This document shows positions 18,380-64,000 of a stretch of DNA of 64,000 bases, piece after piece. The stretch is taken from the IMG/VR virus record IMGVR_UViG_2521172628_000001, positions 16,261-80,260 of that record, one strand, 5' to 3'. This DNA comes from a virus. Taxonomy: Duplodnaviria > Caudoviricetes. The notes below the pieces were generated by a model, which did not search any database, was not told the DNA's origin, and worked only from the letters and a program-made list of their open reading frames with translations. Position 1 is the stretch's first letter. Each line of letters opens with the position of its first letter. Both the position numbers and the translations under genes were made by a program.

Positions 18380-18434
18380 CTGTGTTCTCCCATCACGGGG
18401 TTGGTGGCAGCCCATCGGCGGGCGCCGGGGCGAG

Positions 18435-21609: not shown

Positions 21610-24183
21610 TCAAAGGTAACTGCCGCTCGATGCCTGCGGAATCCTCCTCGGCTGGTTCGGGATGAAGCGGCGCACCGCCGACCCCACACAGTCGACCAGG
21701 TCGTCATTCGGGGCCTTCGGGAAGGCGCACATCTGCTCCTCCAGCTCCCGCAGTCGCCGGGCGTGAATCACCCGGCCGCGCTGGTAATGGTTCAAGACCC
21801 CTTCGGCCCGGGTGAACTTCGGTTCCGTCTGCGACACCGTCTTCACCTTCACCGGCATGTCGTGCAGGATCGCCTTCCACGTGTCGTGACCTTGGTTCAC
21901 CTCGATCAGGATCAGGCCGATCTGCGGGAACTCGTCCAGAAGCGCCAGCACCTTCTCCCGCAGCAACGGTCCCGGCTGGATCTTCACCGCGGTCGCCGCG
22001 TGCACCGTGCACCGCTGATGCCGCGCCGACCACGACACCACACCCAGGCCCGTGAAGTCGGAGGACTTCTTCGCCGTCACCGCCGGGTCGATCGACAGCA
22101 TCATGTGCGTCACCGGGTCCGGCCCGGCCTCGTCCGGGTAGCGGAAGTCGTCCGGCGTCCACAGATCCCCGTCGGCACCCATCGGATCGTTGGCCATGTT
22201 TTTGGCAAAACTGCGCGTCGCCTCTATGGCCTTCATGTACGAAATGGGCCATTTTGCGGGCCATACGCTGCGCTCAGAACCGTCGTCTCGCTTCACTATC
22301 GGCGGCGTGTAGTGGGCACTGAATCCTTCCTCGCGGATCCAGTCGGCCGTCTCGACACCGCGAGCATGCTTGACCAGCTGGTGCACCACACTCCCCGGCA
22401 TCGTTACGGTTCCGGAAATGACGACGCGGGCGTACACGTTGAGCGGCAGGATCGAGTCCACCAGCGTGGTGCGCCGCTTGCGCGCCAGGTCGAGTGAGTA
22501 GGACGACTCGTCCGGTTCGATGTCATCGCACAGGATCAGATCCGGGCGCCGCTCCTCGACCTTCATGCCGAGGTTGGAGGAGTCGATGCCGCGGGCCGCG
22601 AACACGAAGCCGCTGCGGGCGATGAACATCGACTGGGTGTCGGCCACATTCCCGCCGGACGGCCGCTTGGCCGGCGAGCACAGGTCGGGGTAGTCGTGGC
22701 GCAGGAGTGCGTTGCCATCCAACTCCCGCTTAAAGGTGCTGAGATGCGTTTCCGCCTGCGTTGCCGACGAGGCAAAGGCGGCAGCAAAACGGACGTGACC
22801 GTGCGCGGCAGCCCACATCGGCAGGATCAGAAACCACCAGGTGGAGTTATGGGTGGGGACGAGTCCAGGTCCCGCCAAGTAGAGGTGGTCCTCGGAGTCG
22901 ATGGAGATGCAGTTCGTGGCCTGGCTCTCCACCTGTTCGACGCCAATGATGGAACGGCGGGTGGTGCGTGCCTTCGCGCGAAGGCGTTCCCGCTTCCGCT
23001 GCAAGTGGAAGACAGGCAAGTCGGTGGCGAAGCAGATGCGCCACCTACGGCCTACCGCGCGGCCGTCGAGAACCGCCTCGGACTCCTTGCTCTGCGCAGT
23101 GATGCCAAGGGAGCGGACGAGACGCAGCACTCCCTCCGCCAGGACTGGTGTCGTGGTGCAGAACTCCGCCCAGCCGTTCGTGTCGATGGTGCCGTCCGTG
23201 TCCATGAGCCCCTGGAGGAGGGCGAGGCGCTGCTCAACCGATGCGGTGAGGTACTCCTCAGGTATCAGCTTTTCGAACGTCGGCGCGTGGTTACTGGCCA
23301 CCGATTTGATCGGCATGACCTTGCGGAGCTGGGCGACCAACCCTGGCGTTCCGTACAGGTACCGAGCCGTCCGCTTGCGACACTCCTGCCCCTCGGCCTC
23401 CATCCTCTCGATGACGCCAGAGTCCGCAGAGGTGAAGGCCACACCGGTCGAGTGGCCGTCTCCGAGCCACGCACCAAGAACGTAAGGGGAGATTGGTAGA
23501 CGAGCTTCGGGATACTCCACCGCCTCGTACCGAGGGACCGAGTAGCGCGTCTCGATTCGAGATCGGCTGGAAGGGAGGCGCCAGTTCTTGGCGATCTGGC
23601 CCGTCTCTCGGACGTGGCGGGGCTTGTCGCTCCACCGATCGCGGACTTCCCACTCGTGGGCTTCGTCCGCGATCACGCTCTCTCCGCCAGAGAAGGTCAC
23701 CCTGTATGCCGGCCGGTTTTCCCAGTGCGGGGATACGGCGACAACACGGACAGGCTTACCGGAGGGTGAGAAGACCTCGTCGCCGGGCTTGATGTCTCCG
23801 TGAGCCACCCAGCCTCGATTAGCGGTGAGGACGGGCGTGTCGATGGCGAGGGCTTTCCCCATGTTCCGCGGGGCGATGTAGGCGTCCCGGTTCTTGCCCG
23901 GTTCGGTCGGCCGGCGCACCCAGGAACGGGCGGCCCGGCACCAGTCGAGGTGTGCGTCCCCGAACGTGATCTGGCCCTGCGCGTCACGGAGGTGGTGTCG
24001 TAGGTAGGTGGCAGCGAAGCACATGGGGTCGAGGCGGGAGAAGATGCGGCGGGCCTCCGATCGCACGGAGGCGTCCTCGTTGGTCAGGAGGGTGGCGTCG
24101 AAGCCGGCCAGCCAGCGTTGGAAGTCGAAGGTCTCGGCGTCGAGGCCTTCGAGGTAGCCGGGCGCGCGGACCGCGGTCGCCAT
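21610..24183 (-). CDS. terL: Terminase large subunit, intein-containing
   Basis: Walker A APRNMGK|S split by intein, Walker B LILCDD, nuclease SIDPA and NDDLVD. Confidence 0.93.
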   Translation of the reverse strand: MATAVRAPGYLEGLDAETFDFQRWLAGFDATLLTNEDASVRSEARRIFSRLDPMCFAATYLRHHLRDAQGQITFGDAHLDWCRAARSWVRRPTEPGKNRDAYIAPRNMGKALAIDTPVLTANRGWVAHGDIKPGDEVFSPSGKPVRVVAVSPHWENRPAYRVTFSGGESVIADEAHEWEVRDRWSDKPRHVRETGQIAKNWRLPSSRSRIETRYSVPRYEAVEYPEARLPISPYVLGAWLGDGHSTGVAFTSADSGVIERMEAEGQECRKRTARYLYGTPGLVAQLRKVMPIKSVASNHAPTFEKLIPEEYLTASVEQRLALLQGLMDTDGTIDTNGWAEFCTTTPVLAEGVLRLVRSLGITAQSKESEAVLDGRAVGRRWRICFATDLPVFHLQRKRERLRAKARTTRRSIIGVEQVESQATNCISIDSEDHLYLAGPGLVPTHNSTWWFLILPMWAAAHGHVRFAAAFASSATQAETHLSTFKRELDGNALLRHDYPDLCSPAKRPSGGNVADTQSMFIARSGFVFAARGIDSSNLGMKVEERRPDLILCDDIEPDESSYSLDLARKRRTTLVDSILPLNVYARVVISGTVTMPGSVVHQLVKHARGVETADWIREEGFSAHYTPPIVKRDDGSERSVWPAKWPISYMKAIEATRSFAKNMANDPMGADGDLWTPDDFRYPDEAGPDPVTHMMLSIDPAVTAKKSSDFTGLGVVSWSARHQRCTVHAATAVKIQPGPLLREKVLALLDEFPQIGLILIEVNQGHDTWKAILHDMPVKVKTVSQTEPKFTRAEGVLNHYQRGRVIHARRLRELEEQMCAFPKAPNDDLVDCVGSAVRRFIPNQPRRIPQASSGSYL
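22846..23853 (-). mobile_element. Class 3 intein (336 aa) with LAGLIDADG homing endonuclease
   Basis: Starts ALAIDTP, ends VPTHN followed by Ser; W (HEW), C (TNCISI) and T (THN) triplet; LGAWLGDG and LQGLMDTDG motifs. Confidence 0.9.
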
Positions 24184-28980: not shown

Positions 28981-29003
28981 GCCCCCGCCGTATTGGCGGG
29001 GGC
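28981..29003 (-). terminator. Terminator ending the transfer-like operon
   Basis: GCCCCCGCC / GGCGGGGGC stem just after stop at 29020. Confidence 0.65.
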
Positions 29004-29019: not shown

Positions 29020-29466
29020 CTAGTGCCGGTTGGTGGTCTTGGACCAGACGGCCCGGGTCTGGGTGATGCGGGTGTCGTGGTGGACGGGCCCGGTGTACGT
29101 CTGGTGGATCTCAGTGGGTGCCGCTTCGCCGGCGCGGCGGATGAGCCGGGCGATCGCGAGGGTGAGGGCGGCGAGGCCGCCGAGGGATACGCCGATGACG
29201 GTGGGGTCGGCGAAGTCGGAGGCGATCATGACGATGCCGCCGCCTGTGCACACCATGAGCGACATCCCCCCGAAGGCGATCATGCGGACGCTGTCGTCGG
29301 TGGCCTTCTGGCTCATCGCCGGGCGTTCCGGGCGCGGCGCAGGGGGTGCGGTGCCGGTGCGCCTGGCTTCGTGGATGGCGTTGTCGATGGCGGCCTGGAT
29401 GACGGCGTCGGCGAGGGGGTTGGGGGCCTGCCCGGTCGTGGCGGGCGGCTCGGGCAGGTCATACAT
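29020..29466 (-). CDS. SpdD-like membrane protein
   Basis: Pro-rich N-term, two hydrophobic helices, EIHQTYTGPVHHD...W C-term as in Streptomyces spread-region proteins. Confidence 0.6.
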   Translation of the reverse strand: MYDLPEPPATTGQAPNPLADAVIQAAIDNAIHEARRTGTAPPAPRPERPAMSQKATDDSVRMIAFGGMSLMVCTGGGIVMIASDFADPTVIGVSLGGLAALTLAIARLIRRAGEAAPTEIHQTYTGPVHHDTRITQTRAVWSKTTNRH

Positions 29467-29489
29467 GGCGGGTGGGTTCCTTTCGGGGG

Positions 29490-30260
29490 TCAGGCGGCTT
29501 TGGGGGCTCTGCCGTTGCCGCGGCATTCGGGGCAGACGACGAGGATCTGTTCGCCGCCGAAAGCGCCGTGGAGTTTGCCGTTGCCGGAGCATTTCCAGCA
29601 CTTGCCGGCGGCGATGGCTTTGGCGGGCGCCATGCCCTTGTTCTTCTTGATCCACTGCTCGTCGGTGAGTCCGGAGTCGGTGACGACCTTCGACGGCATC
29701 GCCTCCTTCTCCTTCGGGCCGGCGGCGGGTGTGGCGGTGGCGGTCTGGGCGTACCAGGCGCCGCCGACGGTCTTGCCGCCGTGCTTGTTCCGTTCGTGGG
29801 TGCGCAGGGCTTTCGTGGCTTCGCGGGCGTCGCGGTAGCGGGGCTTTTCCTTCTTGCCGCAGGGGCAGGCCCAGCCGACGAGGCCGGTGCGCTTGTCGTT
29901 GAGCCGGGCCGCCTTGTTGATCTCCCAGCGGGAGACTGTCTCCTTCGTGGCGGGTGCGGGGCAGGGCTTGGAGCCGGTGAAGGATCCGTCCTTGCCCTTG
30001 GTGAAGATCTGCCCGTTGCCGTGGCATTTGGGGCAGCCTTCGTGGGTGGCGCGGAGGATGGCGGCGTCCTTGCGGGAGCGCAGGACGTCTTGGTGGTCGG
30101 CGAACCGGGTGACGACCCTGAGGGCCATCCAGGCGCCGAGGCGGGCGTGTAGCGGGCCGCGGCGGGGGATCTTGACGCGGGATACGGGGCGGCGGCTTCG
30201 GGTGGCGGTCGTGCGGCGCGCCGGGGCCTTCCGGCGGGTCGCGGTGCGCGTTGCGGCCAT
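29490..30260 (-). CDS. Basic protein with CxxCxGxG zinc-finger motifs
   Basis: CPKCHGNG, CWKCSGNG, CPECRGNG. Confidence 0.7.
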   Translation of the reverse strand: MAATRTATRRKAPARRTTATRSRRPVSRVKIPRRGPLHARLGAWMALRVVTRFADHQDVLRSRKDAAILRATHEGCPKCHGNGQIFTKGKDGSFTGSKPCPAPATKETVSRWEINKAARLNDKRTGLVGWACPCGKKEKPRYRDAREATKALRTHERNKHGGKTVGGAWYAQTATATPAAGPKEKEAMPSKVVTDSGLTDEQWIKKNKGMAPAKAIAAGKCWKCSGNGKLHGAFGGEQILVVCPECRGNGRAPKAA

Positions 30261-30305
30261 GAACGGGACTCCTCAGGCGAGTGATCGATTTGTTGCGGTT
30301 TGCGA

Positions 30306-30460
30306 GGTGCTCAATGGGTGCTCACGGCTGCTCCGTTGCAGGTCAGGGCTGCTCAGTGACCTGCTCAATGGGTGCTCAAGATCTTGTTGAGCAGTTAGCT
30401 GAGCAGCGGGTTGAGCGGCTCTGACCTGCGGTTGAGCAGCGCTGAGCACCTCTTGAGCAG
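30306..30460. repeat. Mirror-symmetric array of 12 TGCTCA/TGAGCA-type boxes (candidate clt)
   Basis: 6 boxes at 30308/19/29/50/62/73 and 6 inverted at 30388/400/412/433/443/454; GCAGGTCAG and CTGACCTGC at symmetric positions. Confidence 0.85.
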
Positions 30461-30468
30461 GGAATTTT

Positions 30469-32481
30469 CTAGGTCAAAGCGGTCAGGGCTTCGAGCTTGA
30501 AGCCGCGCGGATTGTTCTCGCCGTTCAGGTAGCCGAGCGTCACGGGAGACCCAGCCCCGGCGTCCTTCAGCAGCTTGCGAAGCTCGGCCGCACCAAGGTC
30601 GCCGTACAGCTCCGGGTTGAGATCACCCAGTGCCTCGGTGAGCGTCTCGGTCTTCATCCGGTCCACGCCCGCATCGGCCATGACCTCGATCGCATCGAGC
30701 ACGATCTGCCGATCGCCGGAGATCCGCTTCGACTCCGCTCCCCCGTCGGCGAGATGCAGCAGTCCAGCCGCCTGAAGCGTGTCGCGGTCGAACCACGGCC
30801 GGCCTGCGGCGACCCGGTCGGCGACGGCCCGCTTGATGCCGTCCCGGGAGTGCTCGTTCCACCCGTACAGCAGCGGGCGGTCGAGCCCCGGGCCCTTGAT
30901 GTAGGACTGGCCGGCGTCGTTCTTGATGTCCTTGTTCTGGGCGGGCACCAGGCGGTCGGGGCGGTAGCCCTTCGCTGCGGACCCCTGGCCGAAGACGATG
31001 CGGATGTCGTCCCAGCGGGCGGCCAGCATGACCCTGAGAGTGAAGGAGTCGGCGATCGCGTCCCCCATGGCCTCGCTCGTAGCGTCCTGACCTGCTGCAA
31101 TCGGATAGATCCCGGACTGCTTGGCCAGGCGCAGCAGTTCGATGAACAGCTCCTTCGCCTTGGGGCTGAGGTAGATGAACTCGTCTACGAACGGGAAGAT
31201 CGCCGGATGCTCGCGGGTGGGGATCCACGTGTCGCCCATGTCGAGCCGGTTCCGCACGGTGTTGCGGGCCGTGGCCATCTTGACCAGGTAGCCGAGCCAC
31301 TCCTCGCACGCCTTGTTGCCGCGGATCGGAGGCGTGGCCATGACGCCCTCAAACTCGCGCAGCCCGTCCTTGACGGGATCCAGGTCGAGGCCGATCGCGT
31401 TGTGGCAGGCGGTGATGACCTCGGCAAGGTCGCGGAGCACGCCGGTGGTCTTGGCCGCGCCAGACACTCCGATGACGAGAATCCGCAGGCCCTCCAGGAC
31501 CAGATCGAGCGGGGATCCGTCCATGCAGCGACCGAAGTTGTGCGCCTCGGTGATGTCGAGACTGTTCGGGGCGTGAATCGCCGGCTTCGTCATGGCCTCG
31601 AACGGGTTGCCGGTGACGAGACGCAGCACGATGTGCGCGGACTCGGCCGGGTCGGGGTCGATGAGCGTGCCGCCCTGCTTGATGTTGAAGTGGGAGTCCA
31701 GCTGCTCGGCGACCGCGTTGACCTTGCCGGGGGTGGAGCCCTTGAGGACGACGTCGATCTCCCAGAACTTGCCGCGGAAGCCAAGCGCGCGCACCGCACG
31801 GGTGCCGATGCCTTCGTAGGCGAGCGCCCGTGACACGCACTCCTCGACCTGGTCGGGCGACTGGGCGAGGGCGAGCGGGAACGGCTCGTCGCTGTTGGGG
31901 TCGTCCTGCTCGGCGATGATCTGCTGGGGGGCGAGGCCCGGGTTGTTGATCCGGTAGCGGCCGTAGATGGCGACTGCGGCGGCGGCGACTGCGGCGGTGA
32001 GGCTGGGCGGGATCTTCCACGACCAGTCGGCGGCGGTCATGCCGGCGAACTTCACGAGCGCCCACCAGCCGGCCAGGTTGAGCCCGGCGACGGCGGCGGC
32101 GGACCAGCCGAGGAACCGCCACCGCTTCTTGCGGATGATGTCGACCTTGTTCCAGTCGGCGCCGCGGGACATGCCGCCCAGCACCTCTTGGAGGTCGTGG
32201 GCGCGCACGTACCGCCAGCCGAGGACTCCGACCGCCTTCAGGCCGGCGCCGAAGTAGCGGACGGACAGGCCGGAGAAGCGGGCGGTCTTCGCGACGGCGA
32301 CCATCGCGGCCCCGCCCGTCTTCGTCAGCACGGGCAGGCGCGGCTCGTAGGGGACGACGATGCCGGGAGCGATGTCGTCGACGTCCTCGCCGGACAGGTC
32401 GTCGGGCACGAGCAGCTCGCCGGGGATCACCTTGCTGGTATCCCAGTCGGCGGGGAACTCGGGGTGCTGGTCGAGGCTCAT
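30469..32481 (-). CDS. TraB/TraSA-like FtsK-SpoIIIE DNA translocase
   Basis: N-terminal TM pair, Walker A-like GVSGAAKT, Walker B FVDE, C-terminal RMKTETL..LYG..NPRGF wHTH-like domain. Confidence 0.8.
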   Translation of the reverse strand: MSLDQHPEFPADWDTSKVIPGELLVPDDLSGEDVDDIAPGIVVPYEPRLPVLTKTGGAAMVAVAKTARFSGLSVRYFGAGLKAVGVLGWRYVRAHDLQEVLGGMSRGADWNKVDIIRKKRWRFLGWSAAAVAGLNLAGWWALVKFAGMTAADWSWKIPPSLTAAVAAAAVAIYGRYRINNPGLAPQQIIAEQDDPNSDEPFPLALAQSPDQVEECVSRALAYEGIGTRAVRALGFRGKFWEIDVVLKGSTPGKVNAVAEQLDSHFNIKQGGTLIDPDPAESAHIVLRLVTGNPFEAMTKPAIHAPNSLDITEAHNFGRCMDGSPLDLVLEGLRILVIGVSGAAKTTGVLRDLAEVITACHNAIGLDLDPVKDGLREFEGVMATPPIRGNKACEEWLGYLVKMATARNTVRNRLDMGDTWIPTREHPAIFPFVDEFIYLSPKAKELFIELLRLAKQSGIYPIAAGQDATSEAMGDAIADSFTLRVMLAARWDDIRIVFGQGSAAKGYRPDRLVPAQNKDIKNDAGQSYIKGPGLDRPLLYGWNEHSRDGIKRAVADRVAAGRPWFDRDTLQAAGLLHLADGGAESKRISGDRQIVLDAIEVMADAGVDRMKTETLTEALGDLNPELYGDLGAAELRKLLKDAGAGSPVTLGYLNGENNPRGFKLEALTALT

Positions 32482-33827
32482 GACTCGTCCTTCTGGCGGG
32501 TGTTCGCGGCGCGCTTGGCGTCGGCTGCGAGGGTTCGAGCGACGGGGTGGAACTTGGGTGTGTCGTTGCGCTTACGGCGGGGCGGAACGGGCCGGTAGGA
32601 GGAGGCACTTCGGGCCGCCTTCACTTGGATCGCACGCTGCGCGTTTGTGGTCTTGCTGAGAGTGTTCACAGGGGTGCCGGAGAGGGCTGCTTCAACGCGC
32701 GCCTCGGCCTTGCGGCGGGAGCTGATGGACTCGATGGACTCACCCGGGTCGCAGCCCTGGATGTTGCGGTAGGCGCGCGCCCAGACGGCCTCGGTGACGG
32801 TCACCTCGCCGACGGCCGCAGCGATCTTCTCGGCCTCGTCCCACACCTCCGGGAACTCCTCAGCGCGGGCGGCGGCCAGCATCTCGGCGGCTTCCTTCGC
32901 GGCCTGATCGGCGGCTTCCTTCTCGGAGCCCTTCCGGTCCTCCTCGGCCGCTTTCGCCGCGGCCTCCGCCTTGGCCGCCTTCTTGGCCGCCGCACGCTCG
33001 CGCCGGGTGAGCACGCCCTCCCGCTTGCGGAGTCGCCCGTTCTCGTGGAGGTCCCACACGCCGGGGCCAGCGATGGAGGCGAACGCGGTCGCAACAGCGG
33101 TGCCGGGGTCGAAGGAGTGGAGGCCGTGGTAGAGGTTCACGCCGGCCGCGAGGAAGGCGAGCAGCCACACGATGGTCCGGTAGTGCCACACCGGGCGCCT
33201 GGAGACGGCTGCCGCGCGGGCTCCGCGGTGAACAACCCAGGCCGCACCTTCGAGCATGATCGGGGCAGCTGCCATCCATGGAGCCTTCGGGTTCCAGAAG
33301 AACGACATCTGGACGGGCAGGGAGACGATGCCGCAGACGATCGCGAACTTGATCGCATAGGACCGCCACTTGTCGTCGGCCGCCTGAATCTCAGCCGCTG
33401 CGGCGGCCTCGGCGGCCTGCTGCTCCTCGACCTCGCGAGCCTCTTCCCACTGGGCACGCTCGGCGGCGGCCCTACGCCGGTTGTTCTCGGCGATCCGGGC
33501 GTCGGATGCCGATGCGGCTTCGCGGTCCTTGCGCTCCTGCCGGTCGTTGGCGAGCCGGGCCTTGCGGGCATTCTCCTCGGCCTCTGCGCGGATGGCGTCG
33601 GCCTCCGCCCGAGCCTTGATCAGGCGCTCTTCCTTGGCAGCCTCCGCGGCAACGCGCCGCTCTTCGGCTTCGGCCCACGCCTTGGCGCGCGCGACCTCGG
33701 CGTCAACGGCCGGCTCGGGCTGGGGGGTGCGCTGTTCCTCGGCGGGTTCGGGTGTGGCGGGCCGCCAGTCCCCGAGTACGGGCATGGTCGGCCTCTTGTG
33801 GCCGTTCAGGGGCGGGCTGGCGGTCAT
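32478..33827 (-). CDS. DUF2637/Spd-like coiled-coil membrane protein
   Basis: Coiled coil, 4 TM segments, coiled coil; ATGA-coupled to TraB-like gene. Confidence 0.7.
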   Translation of the reverse strand: MTASPPLNGHKRPTMPVLGDWRPATPEPAEEQRTPQPEPAVDAEVARAKAWAEAEERRVAAEAAKEERLIKARAEADAIRAEAEENARKARLANDRQERKDREAASASDARIAENNRRRAAAERAQWEEAREVEEQQAAEAAAAAEIQAADDKWRSYAIKFAIVCGIVSLPVQMSFFWNPKAPWMAAAPIMLEGAAWVVHRGARAAAVSRRPVWHYRTIVWLLAFLAAGVNLYHGLHSFDPGTAVATAFASIAGPGVWDLHENGRLRKREGVLTRRERAAAKKAAKAEAAAKAAEEDRKGSEKEAADQAAKEAAEMLAAARAEEFPEVWDEAEKIAAAVGEVTVTEAVWARAYRNIQGCDPGESIESISSRRKAEARVEAALSGTPVNTLSKTTNAQRAIQVKAARSASSYRPVPPRRKRNDTPKFHPVARTLAADAKRAANTRQKDES

Positions 33828-33851
33828 GGTGGTTCGGTGTCCTTTCGTTGA

Positions 33852-34046
33852 TCAGCGGGAGCGGCGGCGGGTGGACCTGTATCCGAAGGGGCCGGGAAGG
33901 TCGACCGAGGTGGTGGTGCGGCCAGTGCTGGACCAGGTGCGCTTCGGCCCGTTGCGCGGGCCGACGGTGATCGACCACGACTTGGCGTTGACGTTGATGC
34001 GGACGCCGGGCAGGACCCGGAAGCTCTTGCGGAACGTGATCGGCAT
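33852..34046 (-). CDS. DUF4236 family protein
   Basis: MPITFRKSFRVLPGVRINVN..S.TVG signature. Confidence 0.8.
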   Translation of the reverse strand: MPITFRKSFRVLPGVRINVNAKSWSITVGPRNGPKRTWSSTGRTTTSVDLPGPFGYRSTRRRSR

Positions 34047-34051
34047 TGCGG

Positions 34052-34318
34052 TCACCGCTTCCCGAAGCGGCCGTTGCCGAGGACGCTGAAGGACCGCATT
34101 GCACTGCCGCCGTTGTCGTCGGTGCGCTCGACGAGAACGTGGCCAGAGCGGCGCTCCACGCTCCAGCCGCGGCGCTCGTACTCGCGCAGCTCGGCCTCAC
34201 CGATCGTGCTGTGGTCGACCGGCTGCTGCCGGGCCGCGCGACGCTCACGCCGGGTCGGCGGGGTGCCAGTGGCGTCAGGTGTGTCGGACTGCGGGTACTT
34301 CGGTGTGAACCAGCCCAT
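34052..34318 (-). CDS. Hypothetical protein
   Basis: GAGGAG RBS. Confidence 0.65.
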   Translation of the reverse strand: MGWFTPKYPQSDTPDATGTPPTRRERRAARQQPVDHSTIGEAELREYERRGWSVERRSGHVLVERTDDNGGSAMRSFSVLGNGRFGKR

Positions 34319-34335
34319 GACGGGCTCCTCTCAGG

Positions 34336-34632
34336 TCAGGCGGGCGCGCCGGTGCGCGCACGGTGGAATTCACGGATGAACTCGTCTGTCAGGCCGGAGC
34401 CGACCGCCGCCCCGACCGGCCCGATGCCGGTCACGGAGGCGGCCCACAACTCCAGCCACGCGGCCCTGGTCGCCACGTAGTTGACGATCGGCCGGGCGCA
34501 GCGCACGGTCAGGACGACGGCGCCGAGCCCGGCCATCACCGCCAGGGCGAGGGCCTTCAGCGCCCACCGGCCGGCCTGAACGGCGGCACGATGGAGCCGA
34601 CCGGGCTTCGCGGTGATCAGATACGGGCGCAT
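34336..34632 (-). CDS. Hypothetical membrane protein
   Basis: MRPYLITAKP; one hydrophobic helix. Confidence 0.65.
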   Translation of the reverse strand: MRPYLITAKPGRLHRAAVQAGRWALKALALAVMAGLGAVVLTVRCARPIVNYVATRAAWLELWAASVTGIGPVGAAVGSGLTDEFIREFHRARTGAPA

Positions 34633-34770
34633 GAAGGCCTCTCTCGGGGCTGGTGCGGAGTGGCAATGCTGCTGGTCGTGCAGGGCGCCGCACCAGCGAT
34701 GCGGTCCCCGGCAAGGCCAGGAGGTGCCGGGCGGGGCAGGGGGATGGACCCCGCCCGGCGGATCAGGGGG

Positions 34771-34965
34771 TCAGGACGCGGTGACGCGGAGATGGCGGCG
34801 GAGACGAACGTCCTGGCCCTGCCGGGAGCCGTCCGGGGTGGGATGCCGCCCATTCCAGTCGTCGTCACCCGGGCCGGCGCCCTGCCAGGCGCGGGACGGC
34901 TTCGGGCCGCGCGAGTCATCGGTACGGGCCACACCGCCCTGCTGCGTGTTCCGCCAGGCGGCCAT
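34771..34965 (-). CDS. Hypothetical protein
   Basis: TGATG coupling. Confidence 0.55.
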   Translation of the reverse strand: MAAWRNTQQGGVARTDDSRGPKPSRAWQGAGPGDDDWNGRHPTPDGSRQGQDVRLRRHLRVTAS

Positions 34966-35174
34966 CAGGCGGCGGCCGGGTAGTCGAAGCCGTCGAGCTG
35001 CGCCTGCAGCTCCGGGTCGGCGGCGAGGCGGATCTCCGCCCGGCGGGCCCGGCTGGCAGCCGCGTACTCGGCGAACAGGTCGGAGATCGACAGCGCCGTC
35101 GGGACGAAGACGCGCGCACGCTCGGCACCGCCCGTCAGCGTGGCGTGGTCGGCGGAGAACAGGTACGGGGACAT
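34965..35174 (-). CDS. Hypothetical protein
   Basis: AAAGGA RBS. Confidence 0.65.
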   Translation of the reverse strand: MSPYLFSADHATLTGGAERARVFVPTALSISDLFAEYAAASRARRAEIRLAADPELQAQLDGFDYPAAA

Positions 35175-35219
35175 GACGGGGTCCTTTCAGGACGTGGGGG
35201 TGCAATGGGGTAGGGCGGG

Positions 35220-35396
35220 TCAGTTGATCTGGACGTAGGTGACGGTGCGGCTGACGTCGAAGTTGACGATCGAGTCGCAGTTGCCGCACTGGAAGCCGCA
35301 GCGGTACTTGTCCATCGCGGCGTCGCAACAGCGCGGGGTCTCGGCGAGGCCGAGCTCGTCACCCTCGTCCAGGGCGCTGATGTCGATCTGAGACAC
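35220..35396 (-). CDS. Small zinc-ribbon protein
   Basis: PRCCD..CGFQCGNC; GAGGAG RBS. Confidence 0.6.
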   Translation of the reverse strand: MSQIDISALDEGDELGLAETPRCCDAAMDKYRCGFQCGNCDSIVNFDVSRTVTYVQIN

Positions 35397-35514
35397 GGCT
35401 GATCTCCTCGGTTGGTCATGCCGGGATGGGTGGACTGACGCTGGTCTGGCTAGGAGGCCGCCCCGTCGGGGGTGGTCGGAGCGGCCTTCGAGCCGGGCCA
35501 GGGCCCGGGGCGGG

Positions 35515-35721
35515 TCAGTAGCCGGTGCGGTTGAGGGCGGCGCTGGACTCGCGGGCCGCGTCGGCCACCTCGCGGAGACTGGCGGCGGTGCCGCGCTGGA
35601 TGTCGGCGGCGATGTCGTGGCCCTGGGAGTCGAGGTCGGCGGCGACTCGCTCCAGGCCGTTCGCGTAGCCGTCGTACTCGGCGGCGATCGCTGCACGCTG
35701 CTCAGCGGTGTAACGGGGCAT
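35515..35721 (-). CDS. Hypothetical protein
   Basis: GAGGAG RBS. Confidence 0.65.
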   Translation of the reverse strand: MPRYTAEQRAAIAAEYDGYANGLERVAADLDSQGHDIAADIQRGTAASLREVADAARESSAALNRTGY

Positions 35722-35893
35722 GGCGGGACTCCTCGGGAAGGTAGGGGTGGGGCGGGGGTGGGATGCCTCGGTGGCGGGACTGGGGGATTGTCGGACCGCC
35801 ACCGAGGCGGTCTATGGGGTCAGCGGGTGGGGTGCTCGCTGCGGTCGTTGACCTCGCGCAGGCGGCGCATCATCCGCTCGTAGTCGGCGGCAC

Positions 35894-36067
35894 TCACTGC
35901 TGCTCGCCGTCCTGGTCCGGCACGACGACCAGGAACCGGTCGGAGCGGATCTCGGCAACCACCGTCGCGGGAACACCTGCGTCACGGAACTGCTGCGCCT
36001 GCTCCTCCGCCGGACGACTGCCGCGAGGATGACCCATCGGGGAGGTGGCGAGGATGCGGCGGCTCAT
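35894..36067 (-). CDS. Hypothetical protein
   Basis: ATGA coupling. Confidence 0.6.
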   Translation of the reverse strand: MSRRILATSPMGHPRGSRPAEEQAQQFRDAGVPATVVAEIRSDRFLVVVPDQDGEQQ

Positions 36068-36519
36068 CGCGCAACCTCGACGAGGTCGAGCCGTCCGGCG
36101 GCCTTCAGCCGGCACAGGCAGTCCCGCATCTCGTCCTGCGCGGACAAGCAGCGCTCGATGTTCCCGGCCTGGGAGGCGGCCGAGCAGCGGGCCGAGGCGT
36201 CCCGGTAGCGGGTCGCGGCCTCGAAGGGGGCGATCAAGTCCAGGCGGCCCGCGGCACCCAGCGTCAAGACCGACTCGACGACCGTGTCGTGCGCCGCCTT
36301 GAACGAGTCGAACTCCGCCGGCGACCACTGCGAAGCGGGCTTCCCGGCCAGCTCGTCGCGCCGGGCCGACGCCGCTTCGAAACGGCGCACCGCACGGACG
36401 ATCGGGAGCGGGAGCGGGGCGGTACAGACGTAGGACGCCGCGTCGTGGGCCTTGCGGTCGGCCAAGGACATGCCCTGGTCGTCGGCGCTCTGGGGCGCCG
36501 GTACGATCTGCGTAGCCAT
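36064..36519 (-). CDS. Hypothetical protein with duplicated AAGRLDL motif
   Basis: First gene of the transfer-like operon. Confidence 0.65.
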   Translation of the reverse strand: MATQIVPAPQSADDQGMSLADRKAHDAASYVCTAPLPLPIVRAVRRFEAASARRDELAGKPASQWSPAEFDSFKAAHDTVVESVLTLGAAGRLDLIAPFEAATRYRDASARCSAASQAGNIERCLSAQDEMRDCLCRLKAAGRLDLVEVAR

Positions 36520-36654
36520 GAGGGGACCCTTCAGAGATTCCTCGTGGTTAGGCCCTGGCCTGGGAGTGGAGTCCCGGTGCTGGGGCCGTCTTCGTTTGTG
36601 GGGTGCGGCCTGTGGAGCGGTCGCTGAAGCTTCGGGCGGTGGAGCGCCGTTCGC

Positions 36655-36734
36655 TTCAACACCATCCTGAAGCCAGTCTGAGGCTCTGTCAACACCCTCT
36701 TGAGAACTGGCGTGTTGACTTCTACTCTGAGCTC
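36655..36734. promoter_or_regulatory. Divergent promoter/operator region
   Basis: TTGAGA-17-TACTCT (36700-36728) 6 nt before ATG 36735; GTCAACAC/GTGTTGAC inverted repeat and TCAACACC direct repeat. Confidence 0.6.
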
Positions 36735-37070
36735 ATGACAGATGCGTTCGCGGAGTCCCTGGAGGCGAAAGTCGCCCAAGTTGAAGCCATAGACGACCTG
36801 CTCGCGCGAGGCCGCGCCGCGATCGAGGCCCGCCAGTTGCTGGCGGTCAGCGACCGCGATCTCTACGCGATTCAGCAGGCCGCCTTGCAAGGACTGCGTG
36901 AGGGACGCACGTGGGCGCAGGTGGGCGAACTGTTCGGGCGCACACATGCCTGGGCAGAAGCCATCGCCAAGGGGCGCAGCGCGAAGCGGGGAAAGACTGA
37001 CCATGCCGCCGAGTCAACGCCTCGCGCGGGCGCGGCAGAAGGACGTGACCCCGACATCGATCAGTCGTAA
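36735..37070 (+). CDS. HTH regulator (leaderless)
   Basis: GRTWAQVGELFGRTHAWAEAIA. Confidence 0.75.
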   Translation: MTDAFAESLEAKVAQVEAIDDLLARGRAAIEARQLLAVSDRDLYAIQQAALQGLREGRTWAQVGELFGRTHAWAEAIAKGRSAKRGKTDHAAESTPRAGAAEGRDPDIDQS

Positions 37071-37151
37071 CAGCAGCACCTAGACACGGCGGCGCCACCG
37101 AGTGGACACCGCCACGCCAGACCCGAGCGCAGCGAGCACGGGAGCAGCAGA

Positions 37152-37790
37152 GTGGATGTCGTCGGCACCTGGACAGGCCGATCAGCATGCCTCCTCCAAG
37201 AGGCGATGCGGATGACGAACGAGGCGTTCGGCGAACGCCTCGGGATCTCTCCCCGCACTATCACCCGGTGGCATCAGGCGCCGGAGATGACCCATCGAAT
37301 CGAGGTCCAGCAGATCCTCGACACGGCATACGAGCAGGCAGGTGAGGCGGTGCAGCGACGGTTCGCGCTTCTCATGAGGCCCGCCGAGCCGCGCGTGACC
37401 GCGCAGGCCCTGCGGGTAGCGATAGCCGTCGTGCTGCGCGGAAATGATGTGCTGCTGGTTTGCCGGCGCGGGGACGGCGAGCTGCGCTGGCAGTTCCCGG
37501 CCGGCATGGTCAAGCCGGGCGCCACACCGGAAACGGTCGCCGTCCAGGAGACACACGGCGAGACGGGCGTGCACTGCATCATCCGCGAGCAGCTGGGTGA
37601 ACGCGTCCACCCGGTTACCGGTGTCGTCGCGGCGTACTTCCTCGCCGATCACCTGGCGGGCGAGGCGCGAAACCTCGACCCGCTGGAGAACGTCGACGTG
37701 ACGTGGGTGCCGCGTTCGGCGCTGACCCGGTTCATTCCGCAAGACCAGATCTTCCCGCCGATCCTGAGCGCCTTGGAGGCCATCGCATGA
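37152..37790 (+). CDS. XRE-type HTH - Nudix hydrolase fusion
   Basis: TNEAFGERLGISPRTITRW plus WQFPAGMVKPG..AVQETHGETG. Confidence 0.85.
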   Translation: MDVVGTWTGRSACLLQEAMRMTNEAFGERLGISPRTITRWHQAPEMTHRIEVQQILDTAYEQAGEAVQRRFALLMRPAEPRVTAQALRVAIAVVLRGNDVLLVCRRGDGELRWQFPAGMVKPGATPETVAVQETHGETGVHCIIREQLGERVHPVTGVVAAYFLADHLAGEARNLDPLENVDVTWVPRSALTRFIPQDQIFPPILSALEAIA

Positions 37791-38200
37791 CGACCGAGAC
37801 GACCACCGAGAAGCCGGGCATCTCCGCCGCGATCATCGTCAGCTCTGGGCGCGTCCTGATGGTGCGGCGCCGCGTCTCCGAGGGCGAGCTGATGTGGCAG
37901 TTCCCGGCCGGCGCTATCGAGGCCGGCGAGTCCGCGGAAGAAGCTGCCACCCGGGAGACGGAGGAGGAGACCGGCCTGACCGTGAAGGCGATCCGCCTCC
38001 TCGGGGAGCGGGTCCACCCGAAGACACAGCGGCTGATGTCGTACACGGCCTGCGAGCCCGTCTCCGGCGAAGCGCACGTGGCCGACGATGACGAGCTCGA
38101 CGCGGTCGCCTGGGTGAGCCTCGACGAGATCCCCGAATACGTGCCCTACGGCCTGTTCGGCCCGGTGCAGGAGTACCTGGATGAGGTGCTGGCGGGCTGA
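37787..38200 (+). CDS. Nudix hydrolase
   Basis: Canonical box GAIEAGESAEEAATRETEEETG. Confidence 0.9.
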   Translation: MTTETTTEKPGISAAIIVSSGRVLMVRRRVSEGELMWQFPAGAIEAGESAEEAATRETEEETGLTVKAIRLLGERVHPKTQRLMSYTACEPVSGEAHVADDDELDAVAWVSLDEIPEYVPYGLFGPVQEYLDEVLAG

Positions 38201-46169: not shown

Positions 46170-46453
46170 GCGGCTTCTCCTTGCTGGGGTCGGTGGCTGG
46201 TGCGGCTGGCGGGGTTGCCGCCGCAGCGGGCGCAGGTGCAGGCGTCCGGGGGCGGGGTCGGGCCGGTGGCGGCGGTGCCGAGCGGCCAGCCGCCCGTGTG
46301 GGCAATCCGGTAGGCGGGGGCCGGGACCGCGGCCAGGGCGGGCTTCGGCTTGGCCGTTTCGGGGCGCGGGGCCGCGTTCACGAGGGCGAGCAGGTAGTCC
46401 TTCAGGTCGCCCTGCTGGCGCATGACGGCGATGTCTTCGATCTCGGGCTTCAT
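46166..46453 (-). CDS. Hypothetical protein
   Basis: Coupled to DnaB and MTase. Confidence 0.65.
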   Translation of the reverse strand: MKPEIEDIAVMRQQGDLKDYLLALVNAAPRPETAKPKPALAAVPAPAYRIAHTGGWPLGTAATGPTPPPDACTCARCGGNPASRTSHRPQQGEAA

Positions 46454-48536: not shown

Positions 48537-48538
48537 GG

Positions 48539-55656: not shown

Positions 55657-55674
55657 GACGATCTCCTGGCGGGG

Positions 55675-62343: not shown

Positions 62344-62742
62344 ATGTGGGTCATGCAAGTTGAGCGCGTCCAGGGGGAGTACCGAGACCCCGAAATCATC
62401 GATCTGGAAGACGGCACCGGCTGCCTGTTCAAAATTCACGAGTCGGACATCAGCGAGGACGGCACGAAGATGCTTGCCGACCTCCTCACTGAACAAGCCC
62501 AGCGCTGGGCCCCCCGGCCGGCCGACGAGGTCGGACCCGTCATCCCCGTGCACTGGGACTGCGTGCCGGACCTTCCCGAGCCCTTCGCCATAGGAGTCGA
62601 CGACGGGCCGGACGCCATCATCTACACCGTGGACTCGTCCATCCTCAGCCAGCGCGCCGGCGACTATCTCGGCAGACTCGACACCGAACGGTCGCCCCAC
62701 TGGCAGCGTGTACCCAAGGGCTACCACGACGACGTCAAGTAG
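62344..62742 (+). CDS. Hypothetical protein between repressor and integrase
   Basis: GC3-rich ORF; exact start uncertain. Confidence 0.65.
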   Translation: MWVMQVERVQGEYRDPEIIDLEDGTGCLFKIHESDISEDGTKMLADLLTEQAQRWAPRPADEVGPVIPVHWDCVPDLPEPFAIGVDDGPDAIIYTVDSSILSQRAGDYLGRLDTERSPHWQRVPKGYHDDVK

Positions 62743-62761
62743 CCGAGCGCGAGGGGGCACC

Positions 62762-64000
62762 GTGGCCTACGCCGAGAAGGTCTACAAGGTCAAAGACGGA
62801 AAGAAGACCACCAAATACACCTGGCGCGCCAGGTACAAGAGGCCCGACGGCACATGGGGCAGCGAGCCCGGATTCCCCACCAAGGGAACCGCGGAGAAGT
62901 GGGGCGAAGAGCAGGAAGCCGCCATCCGAGCCGGCCGCTGGGTCGACCCCGTGCTTTCACGCAAGACATTCGGCGAGTTCACCGAGGAGTGGATGGCGGC
63001 ACAGAGGCCGCGCGGCCAGACCGTCATGAATCGGCGAGAGCGGCTGACGCAGACCATCCTGCCGCACTGGCGGCATGTTCCGCTGATCTCCATCACCTGG
63101 TTCGAAGTGGAGGCGTGGGCCCGCACTCTGACGTGCGCTCACGTCACTACGAAGATCTGCGTGCGGCTCATGTCGCAGATCCTCAAGGGCGCGGTCGACG
63201 CGCGCTACCTGGCCGTCAACCCCCTTCAGGGGCGCCGCCTCAGCGGCCTGCCCGCGGAGACGGCCAAGAAGAGGAAGACCGAGCACGAGGAGATGTGGGC
63301 CCGGCCCGAGGAAGTCCTCCAGATGGCGCGGCGGATGGGGCCGGTCGATGGGCTGCTGGTCGTAGCCGTCGCCTTCCTCGGCCTGCGGGTGGAGGAAGCG
63401 CTGGGGCTGCGGCGCCACAACACCCTGCTTGAGCGCAGGCAGCGGCACGATGACGGCGTGTTCACCTGCCCCACCGTGCGGATCGACGGGGACACGGGGG
63501 CGCTCGTCGAGTACTACAAGTACGGCGAGGACGGCCGCCGCATCAAGTTCCGGGGGCTGGAGCCGCTCAAGAACGAGCAGAGCGCACGGGCCATTGACGT
63601 GCCTCCGTTTCTGGCCGGCCTGCTGGATGCGCGGCTGAAGGACTGGCCGCACGACTTCGTCTTCGCCCGCGCGGACGGCAGCTGGTGGCCGCGCGGGACG
63701 TTGCAGGAACTGATTCGCAAGGTCGCGGACGGGCGCCCGGGCGAAGGCGCCAGGGCGTGGTCCCCCATCAAGCCGGGCTTGTCGCTGCGGGATCTGCGGC
63801 ACTCGCACGACACCTATCAGGCCCAGATCGGGGTGAAGCCCGTATTGGCCTTCGAGCAGGCGGGGCATAAGTACCCTGGCATCAAAGGCACGTATCAGCA
63901 TGCGACGCCGTTGATGCGGCAGGAGCGGCTGGACGGCCTGCAGGAGCTGTTCGAGAGGGCGTTGAGGAGTCTGGGGTGGCGGGAGATCTGGGAGAGTTGA
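62762..64000 (+). CDS. int: Tyrosine integrase
   Basis: GLRVEEALGL (R), PLKN (K), DLRHSH, AGH, TYQH (Y); N-terminal WRARY..GFPTK arm-binding domain. Confidence 0.92.
   Translation: MAYAEKVYKVKDGKKTTKYTWRARYKRPDGTWGSEPGFPTKGTAEKWGEEQEAAIRAGRWVDPVLSRKTFGEFTEEWMAAQRPRGQTVMNRRERLTQTILPHWRHVPLISITWFEVEAWARTLTCAHVTTKICVRLMSQILKGAVDARYLAVNPLQGRRLSGLPAETAKKRKTEHEEMWARPEEVLQMARRMGPVDGLLVVAVAFLGLRVEEALGLRRHNTLLERRQRHDDGVFTCPTVRIDGDTGALVEYYKYGEDGRRIKFRGLEPLKNEQSARAIDVPPFLAGLLDARLKDWPHDFVFARADGSWWPRGTLQELIRKVADGRPGEGARAWSPIKPGLSLRDLRHSHDTYQAQIGVKPVLAFEQAGHKYPGIKGTYQHATPLMRQERLDGLQELFERALRSLGWREIWES

What the first reader, a model, noticed from the sequence alone, without database searches (positions are those of the whole stretch)
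29020..38200. Candidate conjugative prophage: TraB-type transfer module inside an intact-looking siphovirus
Seen: an operon with a TM-anchored FtsK-like ATPase ending in a wHTH-like domain, coupled to a 4-TM coiled-coil protein, followed by a repeat array, a Zn-finger protein and an SpdD-like protein, with divergent HTH and Nudix genes. It sits between the phage early and late regions. Known: Streptomyces plasmids and AICEs transfer dsDNA with a single TraB plus clt and Spd proteins, and pSAM2 uses the Nudix protein Pif for conjugal immunity. No separate RepSA/RepAM or second integrase flanks the module, so it does not look like an independently inserted AICE. Inference: the excised, theta-replicating phage circle could spread hypha to hypha without virions. 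Plasmid-phage hybrids are known in Streptomyces, so novelty needs a literature check.
Basis: partly seen in the sequence, partly recalled or inferred. Interest (0 to 1): 0.85.

Follow-up and report, generated by a model that had tools for sequence, protein, structure and literature searches.

The report
Plasmid-type DNA pump cassette in prophage
A temperate tailed phage lodged in a Streptomyces genome carries the membrane DNA pump, its membrane partner and the matching docking repeats that Streptomyces plasmids use to push double-stranded DNA between hyphae, so it may also spread without virus particles; this is untested and a plasmid-phage precedent exists.

Summary
The window is an integrated Streptomyces siphovirus-like prophage, with early genes, late genes and one tyrosine integrase at 62708-64000. 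Between early and late genes lies an operon of its own: a 4-TM coiled-coil protein, a coupled 670-aa FtsK/TraB-like translocase, 12 TGCTCA boxes, a Zn-finger protein and a small 2-TM protein. HTH/pseudo-Nudix and Nudix genes run divergently.

The cassette matches the transfer region of conjugative plasmid pFP1: the same gene pair and the same repeat layout, including a GCAGGTCAG element.

Across 45 related loci the array layout is kept but the box sequence changes. It changes together with residues of the translocase's C-terminal winged helix only, independently of the motor-domain tree. This argues for specific pump-to-repeat recognition, as in TraB/clt.

The cassette has no att repeats, Rep gene or integrase of its own. 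It is accessory and mosaic: it sits in unrelated phage backbones, and 3 of 5 close structural relatives lack it.

Virion-free DNA transfer or spread is the best reading but is not shown. The plasmid-phage pZL12 is a precedent. This scan has already noted the same kind of cassette in at least 88 other genomes.

The parts
36064..36519 (-). First gene of the cassette operon (151 aa, no family)
   Evidence: GC3 gene call. No Pfam or PHROG hit. Partial relatives in 2 of 17 loci.
34336..34632 (-). Conserved 98-aa membrane protein of the cassette
   Evidence: Hydrophobic segment at residues 20-55. 43-87% identical in all 16 related loci (77-87% in 15 of them). dN/dS 0.18-0.26 in 4 of 5 pairs and 0.64 in the fifth.
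32478..33827 (-). 4-TM coiled-coil partner, DUF2637/SpdB2-like in build
   Evidence: Four hydrophobic segments at 154-260. DUF2637 match of 18.7 bits, below the 22.8 cut-off. Family profile against the pFP1 DUF2637 protein: hhalign probability 98%, E 1.8e-13. ATGA overlap with the translocase gene.
30469..32481 (-). TraB/FtsK-like dsDNA translocase with C-terminal winged helix
   Evidence: PHROG 12531, E 3.8e-69. AF2 model and FtsK motor fold. K344, D433 and E434 invariant. Walker A reads GVSG[AS]AK[ST] in 113 of 120 close homologues. 33% identity to plasmid translocases, C-terminus included.
30308..30459 (.). clt-like array: 6 direct + 6 inverted TGCTCA boxes and two GCAGGTCAG elements
   Evidence: 10 of the window's 25 words lie here. 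Box positions identical in 16 of 18 close loci, the other two shifted by up to 3 nt with the same spacing. Box sequence covaries with the translocase C-terminus. Same layout in pFP1.
29490..30260 (-). Zn-finger protein with CXXCXGXG motifs
   Evidence: DnaJ_CXXCXGXG E 4.5e-6, below the cut-off. Present in all 16 related loci at 52-71% identity. No plasmid match.
29020..29316 (-). Small two-TM protein, last gene of the operon
   Evidence: phrog_19266, E 2.3e-18, unknown function. Two hydrophobic segments. Found in 7 of 17 loci.
28981..29003 (.). GC-rich stem-loop, terminator-like, at the operon end
   Evidence: 10-pair stem with 9 G-C pairs, reported on both strands.
37152..37790 (+). Divergent HTH fused to a degenerate Nudix domain
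   Evidence: NUDIX E 1.5e-13 and weak HTH hits. The box GMVKPGATPETVAVQETHGETG lacks the E, RE and EE residues.
37787..38200 (+). Canonical Nudix hydrolase, coupled to the gene before it
   Evidence: NUDIX E 3.7e-25. Canonical box. Found with the cassette in 10 of 17 loci. Start at 37787 read from the translation.
62708..64000 (+). Tyrosine integrase of the prophage
   Evidence: phrog_1 E 2.5e-30. The only phrog_1 match in the 80-kb record. Missed by PF00589.

Best explanation
The cassette is a pFP1-type Streptomyces plasmid DNA-transfer system carried by a temperate tailed phage.

Proposed mechanism: the 670-aa protein is a membrane-anchored FtsK/TraB-like motor. Its C-terminal winged helix, mainly the wing at residues 648-661, reads the 12 TGCTCA boxes that lie on the phage DNA directly after its own gene. 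The motor then pumps that double-stranded DNA through the membrane, helped by the translationally coupled 4-TM protein. This would give the phage genome a virion-free route across hyphal cross-walls or into a touching mycelium. The divergent HTH/pseudo-Nudix and Nudix genes probably control the cassette or limit its use.

Shown here: homology, fold, the array, co-variation of box and wing, and purifying selection.

Inferred: DNA binding, pumping, the timing of expression, and which DNA form is moved (excised circle, replicating DNA, or the integrated prophage with flanking chromosome).
For: 1. **Motor.** FtsK motor fold, TM-score 0.61-0.71 on the target, E about 1e-14. Lys344 and Asp433-Glu434 are invariant in 59 relatives.
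2. **Cassette homology with a conjugative plasmid.** 32.5% identity to the pFP1 translocase over residues 194-669. The partner protein matches the pFP1 DUF2637 protein encoded just upstream of that gene. pFP1 has boxes plus the same CGCAGGTCAG element after its tra stop.
3. **Array.** 10 of 25 window words lie in 208 bp. Between the two arms, spacers are complementary at only 84 of 312 positions, while the 15-nt element matches at 233 of 300. This points to protein sites rather than a hairpin.
4. **Co-variation.** All 45 loci have an array after the stop, and I read at least 9 box types from it. Columns that separate TGCTCA (7 loci) from TGCTCG (13 loci): 3 of 669, at residues 609, 648 and 649. 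Columns that separate CGTCTA (9) from CCGGCG (9): 14 of 664, all at 601-665. No separating columns were found in the Zn-finger, 4-TM or 98-aa proteins.
5. **Independence from the motor tree.** The box label needs 5 changes on the motor tree, at least 2 of them forced. The window is sister to a TGCTCG locus at 98% support.
6. **Selection.** dN/dS for the translocase is 0.24-0.35 in 5 pairs.
7. **Published plasmid work.** TraB binds 8-bp clt repeats through its C-terminal wHTH, and SpdB2 is a 4-TM, coiled-coil pore former that interacts with TraB (passages of PMC3583192 and PMC4447253).
Against: - There is no experiment and no expression data.
- The protein fails the curated family models: NCBIfam plasmid_TraB scores 13.8-15 bits against a cut-off of 800, and there is no Pfam FtsK_SpoIIIE hit.
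- Walker A carries Ala where 90% or more of relatives have Gly.
- The wing-coding DNA lies within 200 bp of the array, so part of the co-variation could be plain linkage in one recombination block.
- The cassette is dispensable. 3 of 5 proviruses with a 62-77% identical portal have no such translocase.
- No GntR Kor-type repressor, as found on plasmids, is present.
- The prophage is integrated, so transfer of the whole phage needs excision.
- The C-terminal model matches only generic winged helices, Z 5-6.7.
Confidence: 0.55

Rival explanations
1. The pump serves only the lytic cycle. After infection or induction it spreads replicating phage DNA through septal cross-walls of the same mycelium, so more compartments yield virions. 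Nothing passes between separate mycelia and no lysogens arise by mating.
For: Thoma et al. [quoted passage not shown] The cassette is co-oriented with, and lies just upstream of, the late genes, here and in pZL12. Isolated 130-kb Streptomyces phages (cluster BE, which I recall as lytic) carry related translocases at 32-37% identity.
Against: The BE phage Jay2Jay has neither the partner gene nor an array, so it is a weak model. The cassette has a divergent regulator block and a terminator-like stem of its own, which looks like separate control. The plasmid relatives of this exact cassette type sit in plasmid transfer regions.
Confidence: 0.25
2. The cassette acts mainly on host DNA. With the clt fixed in an integrated prophage, the pump mobilises flanking chromosome in an Hfr-like way, or it works as a pump or segregation aid during sporulation. 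The phage genome itself is not the selected cargo.
For: The docking array lies in an integrated element (IMG/VR 'provirus'; source contig of 589 kb). Conjugative elements of this type are reported to drive large chromosomal transfers in Streptomyces (PMC11571958, seen in the search listing only).
Against: The private, fast-changing box-and-wing pairs fit an element that marks its own DNA. The cassette travels with phages, not with host loci.
Confidence: 0.1
3. The cassette is a separate mobile element, or a decaying remnant of a plasmid or AICE, that happens to lie in the prophage and has no function for it.
For: It is absent from 3 of 5 structurally related proviruses and present in unrelated backbones. 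It therefore moves between phages.
Against: There are no att-like repeats, no integrase of its own and no Rep match. It holds the same position relative to the late genes in all loci examined. dN/dS is 0.24-0.35. Catalytic residues are intact. All 12 boxes change in concert with the wing.
Confidence: 0.06

Closest known systems
Transfer region of Streptomyces circular plasmid pFP1 (NC_006912.1) and like plasmids (e.g. NZ_CP108056.1)
   Same: Same gene pair: a DUF2637-type membrane protein followed by an FtsK-like translocase. 32.5% identity over residues 194-669, C-terminal domain included. Same array layout after the stop: direct then inverted boxes around a CGCAGGTCAG element.
   Different: The plasmids have a GntR regulator upstream, an RRQRL zinc protein and Spd-like genes downstream, and no virion genes. 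The box is CTCTAC in pFP1 and TGCTCA here. That pFP1 traB is functional is recalled from Zhang et al. 2008; the paper is not held.
pSVH1 TraB / clt / SpdB2 system (Vogelmann 2011; Thoma 2015)
   Same: The working model is the same: a membrane FtsK-like hexamer whose C-terminal wHTH reads 8-bp repeats next to its gene, together with a 4-TM coiled-coil pore protein that interacts with it (passages of PMC3583192 and PMC4447253).
   Different: No pSVH1 sequence was compared here. The curated plasmid_TraB model is far from met. The specificity differences found here lie in the wing and in strand 1, not in helix 3 as reported for pSVH1.
Plasmid-phage pZL12 / phage ZL12 (GQ919031)
   Same: A virion-forming Streptomyces phage with a tra operon (membrane protein, large protein, FtsK-like protein) directly upstream of, and co-oriented with, the packaging and late genes. 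[quoted passage not shown] A Nudix-like gene sits in its tra operon.
   Different: It is an extrachromosomal plasmid prophage with ParA/ParB and a GntR regulator; the window is an integrated provirus. The translocases are only remote relatives: BLASTP is not significant, hhalign gives 98.3%, E 1.9e-14, about 16% identity. No box array is visible after pZL12.71c.
FtsK-like DNA translocases of isolated 130-kb Streptomyces phages (Jay2Jay, Mildred21 and others)
   Same: 32-37% identity over the motor region. All 89 phage records that match are Streptomyces phages. Same PHROG 12531.
   Different: The match stops at residue 568, so the winged helix is not shared. In Jay2Jay there is no partner gene and no array, and the gene lies among tRNA genes.
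FtsK gamma domain / KOPS
   Same: A winged helix at the C-terminus of an FtsK-type motor that reads short oriented DNA words. 3 of 59 superfamily members carry a Pfam FtsK_gamma domain.
   Different: The window's C-terminal domain gives only generic winged-helix matches. Its words are clustered in one array rather than spread along a chromosome.
pSAM2 Pif (Nudix conjugal immunity factor)
   Same: A Nudix gene kept next to a TraB-type transfer module, in 10 of 17 loci.
   Different: Resemblance by recall only. No Pif sequence was on hand and no comparison was made.

Membership tests
Streptomyces TraB-type conjugative translocase (FtsK/SpoIIIE-like) | FtsK-like alpha/beta motor fold | tested here: met
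   Foldseek top hits are 2IUT, 2IUS and 6T8B, E about 1e-14, TM 0.61-0.71 on the target.
Streptomyces TraB-type conjugative translocase (FtsK/SpoIIIE-like) | Walker A and Walker B motifs | tested here: met
   K344, D433 and E434 are invariant in 59 sequences. Walker A is the variant GVSGAAKT, kept in 113 of 120 close homologues.
Streptomyces TraB-type conjugative translocase (FtsK/SpoIIIE-like) | N-terminal membrane anchor | tested here: inconclusive
   Long helices at 58-179 in the model. Only moderate hydropathy at 123-148 and 154-178.
Streptomyces TraB-type conjugative translocase (FtsK/SpoIIIE-like) | [quoted passage not shown] | tested here: met
   Models with pLDDT above 90 over residues 590-669. 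All listed matches are winged helices, Z 5-6.7.
Streptomyces TraB-type conjugative translocase (FtsK/SpoIIIE-like) | Cognate short repeats (clt) beside the gene | tested here: met
   12 boxes directly after the stop. Box type covaries with the C-terminal domain only. Binding itself is not testable here.
Streptomyces TraB-type conjugative translocase (FtsK/SpoIIIE-like) | Curated model scores (NCBIfam plasmid_TraB; Pfam FtsK_SpoIIIE) | tested here: not met
   13.8 and 15 bits against a cut-off of 800. No Pfam hit for this protein. 6 of 59 relatives hit FtsK_SpoIIIE.
Streptomyces TraB-type conjugative translocase (FtsK/SpoIIIE-like) | Drives transfer and pock formation | not testable with these tools
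   Needs matings.
SpdB2 / DUF2637 membrane partner | Four TM helices between an N-terminal coiled coil and a C-terminal domain | tested here: met
   Hydropathy and composition, compared with the SpdB2 description in PMC4447253.
SpdB2 / DUF2637 membrane partner | Pfam DUF2637 above the cut-off | tested here: not met
   18.7 bits against 22.8. No hit in hmmscan. The profile does match the pFP1 DUF2637 protein, probability 98%. That DUF2637 covers SpdB2 is recalled, not tested.
AICE (integrase + Rep + Tra between att sites) | Own integrase, Rep and flanking att repeats | tested here: not met
   One integrase, at the phage end. Longest flanking repeat is 16 bp, within the random range. No DUF3631 match, but that search's controls did not ring either.
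Plasmid-phage of the pZL12 type | Extrachromosomal maintenance (ParA/ParB, repA) | not tested
   No ParA/ParB search was run. The record is labelled provirus and its translocase gene lies on a 589-kb contig.
Pif-type Nudix immunity factor | Homology to pSAM2 Pif | not tested
   Only the Nudix fold and box were shown.

The most novel reading that the evidence does not exclude
Many integrated temperate Streptomyces phages have two transmission routes: virions, and TraB-driven transfer of naked double-stranded DNA. Each cassette keeps a private docking code (wing residues paired with box sequence), and this code is swapped by recombination so that co-resident elements do not pump each other's DNA. 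Because the docking array sits in the chromosome of every lysogen, such prophages would also make their hosts Hfr-like donors of neighbouring chromosomal DNA.
Probability: 0.3. Interest if true: 0.8.

Novelty: new variant of a known kind. Interest (0 to 1): 0.55.

Why it matters
If the pump works as on plasmids, a tailed phage could pass between hyphae without receptors, capsids or lysis. That would change how host range, lysogen spread and phage-driven gene flow are understood in the main antibiotic-producing bacteria.

The natural series of box-and-wing pairs found here is a ready-made test set for how FtsK-type winged helices read DNA. It could also yield orthogonal transfer tools for Streptomyces genetics.

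The idea is not new in outline: pZL12, and SpdB2 homologues in phiC31 and VWB, are already described. What may be new is the chromosome-integrated, widely spread cassette with its co-evolving docking site. I found no description of that in my four literature searches.

Tried and rejected
**Searches and checks that gave nothing or were set aside**
- Pfam and NCBIfam on the cassette proteins gave nothing usable for the translocase or its partner.
- PF00589 and PF07508 found no integrase in the record. This was a false negative: PHROG phrog_1 finds one.
- tblastn of the 4-TM protein against phages gave no match.
- tblastn of the Zn-finger protein against plasmids gave no match.
- tblastn of the Nudix protein against phages gave no match. 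Its plasmid hits lie in uninformative contexts.
- Foldseek of the C-terminal domain gave no match at E <= 0.001. FtsK gamma is not among the rows shown by either fold search, which is no evidence against kinship.
- A hairpin reading of the array was rejected because the spacers are not complementary. My first, single-centre pairing was off by one base and is not used for that.
- My first synteny table dropped hits covering under half of a query. This hid TerL, which is 857 aa here and matched in two stretches. 'Different packaging module' therefore rests, not.
- Box classes were assigned by eye from the printed arrays. L054 could not be classed.
- RNA evidence: no RNA holder was listed.
- Prophage ends of the window itself could not be set. 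The record stops at the integrase stop codon, and no convincing repeat was found within the record.
- Papers not held: Zhong 2010, Zhang 2008, Vogelmann 2011. What I say of them comes from passages in PMC3583192, PMC4487206 and PMC4447253, or from recall, as marked.
- Supplementary files were not opened.


Full report
**What the window is.** The window is the right 64 kb of an 80,260-bp IMG/VR record labelled provirus, with a CheckV completeness estimate of 81%. GC content is 65-72%. Nearly all genes run on the - strand.

PHROG searches give the following gene order, reading along the - strand:
- An early block: anti-repressor 60075-60881, clamp-like 54389-55762, RecE-like 53233-54186, RecT-like 52050-52865, DnaC-like 47823-48806 and DnaB-like 46453-47826.
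- A late block: TerL 21610-24183, portal 20008-21573, scaffold 17609-18496, major head protein 16568-17473, a 1532-aa tape measure at 7941-12539 and a minor tail protein at 3432-6290.

An amidase-type lysin and a holin-sized membrane protein lie in the record to the left of the window; I read these from the translations, not from a family search.

The 430-aa protein at 62708-64000 is a tyrosine integrase by phrog_1 (E 2.5e-30). It is the only such match in the record. Pfam's integrase model missed it.

The translocase gene's own database entry lies on a 589-kb contig. This is therefore an integrated temperate siphovirus-like prophage of a Streptomyces. All 89 phage records that match are Streptomyces phages, as are 43 of the 45 plasmid records (2 are Kitasatospora), and the named genome loci are all Streptomyces.

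**The cassette.** Between the two blocks lies a - strand unit. It starts at 36519 and ends at a GC-rich stem-loop at 28981-29003. Its genes are:
- Small genes at 36064-36519, 35515-35802, 34965-35174, 34336-34632 and 34052-34318.
- The 449-aa 4-TM protein at 32478-33827.
- The 670-aa translocase at 30469-32481, overlapping the 4-TM gene by ATGA.
- The 208-bp spacer holding the array.
- The Zn-finger protein at 29490-30260.
- A 98-aa two-TM protein at 29020-29316.

A + strand block runs divergently. It holds an HTH fused to a Nudix domain whose box has lost the E, RE and EE residues, a coupled canonical Nudix, and two further small genes. Only the name 'SpdD-like' could not be checked.

**The translocase.** It has no Pfam hit and only a trace match to NCBIfam plasmid_TraB. 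It matches PHROG 12531, 'FtsK/SpoIIIE-like', at E 3.8e-69.

A search of 1.84 billion cluster representatives finds only 218 relatives at E <= 0.001. Among 59 of them, 6 hit Pfam FtsK_SpoIIIE and 3 carry an FtsK_gamma domain.

The AF2 model (pLDDT 86.7) shows:
- long N-terminal helices at 58-179;
- a small alpha/beta domain;
- a RecA-like core at 313-560;
- after a short loop, a winged helix at 583-669.

Its best PDB matches are FtsK motor domains, followed by the TcpA coupling protein and EccC. Folded alone, the C-terminal domain gives only generic winged-helix matches.

Lys344 and Asp433-Glu434 are invariant. The Walker A motif reads GVSG[AS]AK[ST] in 113 of 120 close homologues, with Ala where other relatives have Gly. 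dN/dS is 0.24-0.35 in five pairs.

**The array.** Read on the - strand, the spacer holds six TGCTCA-type boxes and then six inverted ones. A GCAGGTCAG element sits in the long gap of each arm. Ten of the 25 TGCTCA/TGAGCA words of the whole window lie here.

In 20 close loci, box spacing is nearly fixed. The 15-nt GCAGGTCA element is mirrored at 233 of 300 positions. The short spacers are complementary at only 84 of 312 positions, which is about chance. The array is thus a set of protein sites, not a conserved hairpin.

**Co-variation.** Related translocase genes were found in 39 IMG/VR contigs and 5 GTDB genomes. In all 45 loci, the window included, an array of direct and inverted boxes follows the stop codon, but the box differs (classed by eye):

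| Box type | Loci |
|---|---|
| TGCTCA | 7 |
| TGCTCG | 13 |
| TGCTA | 1 |
| CCCTCG | 1 |
| CGTCTA | 9 |
| CGTCT variants | 2 |
| CCGGCG | 9 |
| CGTCC | 1 |
| GACCCG-type | 1 |
| Unclear | 1 |

A GCAGGT core stays in place throughout.

The alignment columns that perfectly separate TGCTCA from TGCTCG loci number 3 of 669 (412 variable). They lie at residues 609, 648 and 649. For CGTCTA against CCGGCG they number 14 of 664 (504 variable), all at residues 601-665. In the first, smaller set, 8 of 8 such columns lay at 609-661, and none was found in the Zn-finger, 4-TM or 98-aa proteins.

In the model these residues lie in strand 1 and in the wing.

On a tree built from residues 1-575, the TGCTCA/TGCTCG label needs 5 changes, at least 2 of them forced by well-supported branches. 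The label is no more clustered than shuffled labels. The window's nearest relative, at 98% support, is a TGCTCG locus. The winged helix and the twelve boxes therefore switch together, repeatedly, and apart from the motor.

The caveat is that the two lie within 200 bp of each other and may travel as one recombination block. Even so, a concerted change of all boxes needs a common reader.

**Link to plasmids.** tblastn finds 45 plasmid records at 30-37% identity. Several matches cover residues 183-669, that is, including the winged helix.

- In NZ_CP108056.1 the match is the 'DNA translocase FtsK' of a typical transfer region, with GntR regulators and Spd-sized genes.
- In pFP1 the gene directly upstream is a 480-aa DUF2637 protein. 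The profile of the window's 4-TM protein matches it at 98% probability.
- The window's 4-TM protein itself scores 18.7 bits on DUF2637, against a cut-off of 22.8.
- After the pFP1 tra stop come CTCTAC boxes, then GTAGAG boxes, with CGCAGGTCAGCGGC and its complement between them.

The cassette is therefore of the pFP1 type in its proteins and in its cis site.

Published work on pSVH1 and pWTY27 shows the following (passages of PMC3583192 and PMC4447253):
- Such translocases bind the repeats beside their gene through the C-terminal wHTH.
- They form hexameric pores.
- SpdB2 is a 4-TM protein with an N-terminal coiled coil. It forms pores, interacts with TraB and is needed for intramycelial spreading.

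**Part of the phage or a guest?** No att-like repeat flanks the cassette: the longest is 16 bp, against 12-18 bp in 30 random region pairs. It has no integrase and no DUF3631 match, although that search had no positive control.

In two chromosomes (handles G002 and G003) the cassette is 68-83% identical to the window's. Portal, TerL, capsid and replication genes give no match there, and the tape measure is only 37-43% identical. In G003 a 50-bp exact repeat lies next to the integrase homologue and again 83 kb away.

L005 and L008 have a TerL of phrog_9, whereas the window's matches phrog_38/15.

Conversely, I examined 19 contigs with a 61-81% identical portal and at least 8.8 kb of upstream flank:
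- 2 hold the close translocase; these are the same contigs as L010 and L002.
- 3 hold a 31-33% identical translocase at the same place.
- 14 give no hit.

Of 5 whole proviruses of this structural type, 3 have no superfamily match at all and 2 have only distant ones.

The cassette is thus an accessory, exchangeable phage module with a preferred slot just upstream of the late genes. It is neither a nested element nor a fixed core part of the phage.

**Comparison with known phages.** pZL12 (phage ZL12) has, in that same slot, a GntR regulator, a membrane protein, a 766-aa protein and an FtsK-like protein, followed by packaging genes. Elsewhere on the plasmid it has ParA/ParB. Its translocase is only remotely related to the window's, and no array is evident after it.

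The isolated 130-kb phages share the motor region only. Jay2Jay has no partner gene and no array.

Four literature searches gave no paper describing a TraB-clt cassette in chromosome-integrated prophages. Thoma et al. 2015 do mention SpdB2 homologues in phiC31 and VWB and their possible role in spreading phage DNA.

Earlier notes of this scan report the same kind of cassette in at least 88 other genomes, with the same reading. Those notes are not evidence, but they show that the finding is recurrent.

**Verdict.** The cassette is, with good confidence (about 0.8), a sequence-specific TraB/clt-type DNA translocation system of plasmid descent, kept functional in phages. That it gives the phage a virion-free route between compartments or mycelia is the best mechanism (0.55) but is untested. 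A purely intramycelial, lytic-cycle role is the main rival. I class it as a new variant of a known kind.

Noticed in passing
window 30412-30433 and 30334-30355; also L063 6555-6575 and 6655-6675: A GCAGGTCAG-type element sits inside the box array. It stays constant while the boxes change between lineages, and it is also present in plasmid pFP1. A GCAGGT core is seen in all box classes. Its reader is unknown; it may be a conserved part of the pump, or the Zn-finger protein.
   Followed up: partly
window 21610-24183: TerL is 857 aa and is matched in two separate stretches (98-344 and 447-848). Relatives' TerL proteins are 553-572 aa. This fits the intein that another first-reader note proposes. 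I did not test it.
   Followed up: no
window 31447-31470 (translocase residues 338-345): Walker A has Ala in place of the usual Gly before the Lys (GVSGAAKT). This is conserved in 113 of 120 close homologues and seen in 6 of 103 long cluster representatives (the other superfamily relatives).
   Followed up: partly
window 62708-64000: The prophage integrase is missed by Pfam PF00589, both in hmmscan and in the six-frame search, but is clear with PHROG phrog_1. In two relatives, exact repeats of 50 bp and 22 bp lie directly beside the homologous gene. The 50-bp one appears to lie inside a host coding sequence.
   Followed up: partly
L062 15299-15730 (pZL12.76c): The tra operon of plasmid-phage pZL12 holds a weak relative of the window's Nudix protein (30.5% identity, E 9e-10). 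Nudix genes thus recur beside TraB-type modules.
   Followed up: no
window 37152-38200: The pair of an HTH fused to a catalytically degenerate Nudix, followed by an overlapping canonical Nudix, is kept with the cassette in 10 of 17 loci. This suggests a ligand-sensing regulator plus an enzyme.
   Followed up: partly
L069, L082, L098 (about 7-8 kb upstream of the portal): Phages with a 78-79% identical portal carry, in the same slot, a translocase only 31-33% identical to the window's. The slot seems to collect TraB-type modules of different lineages.
   Followed up: no
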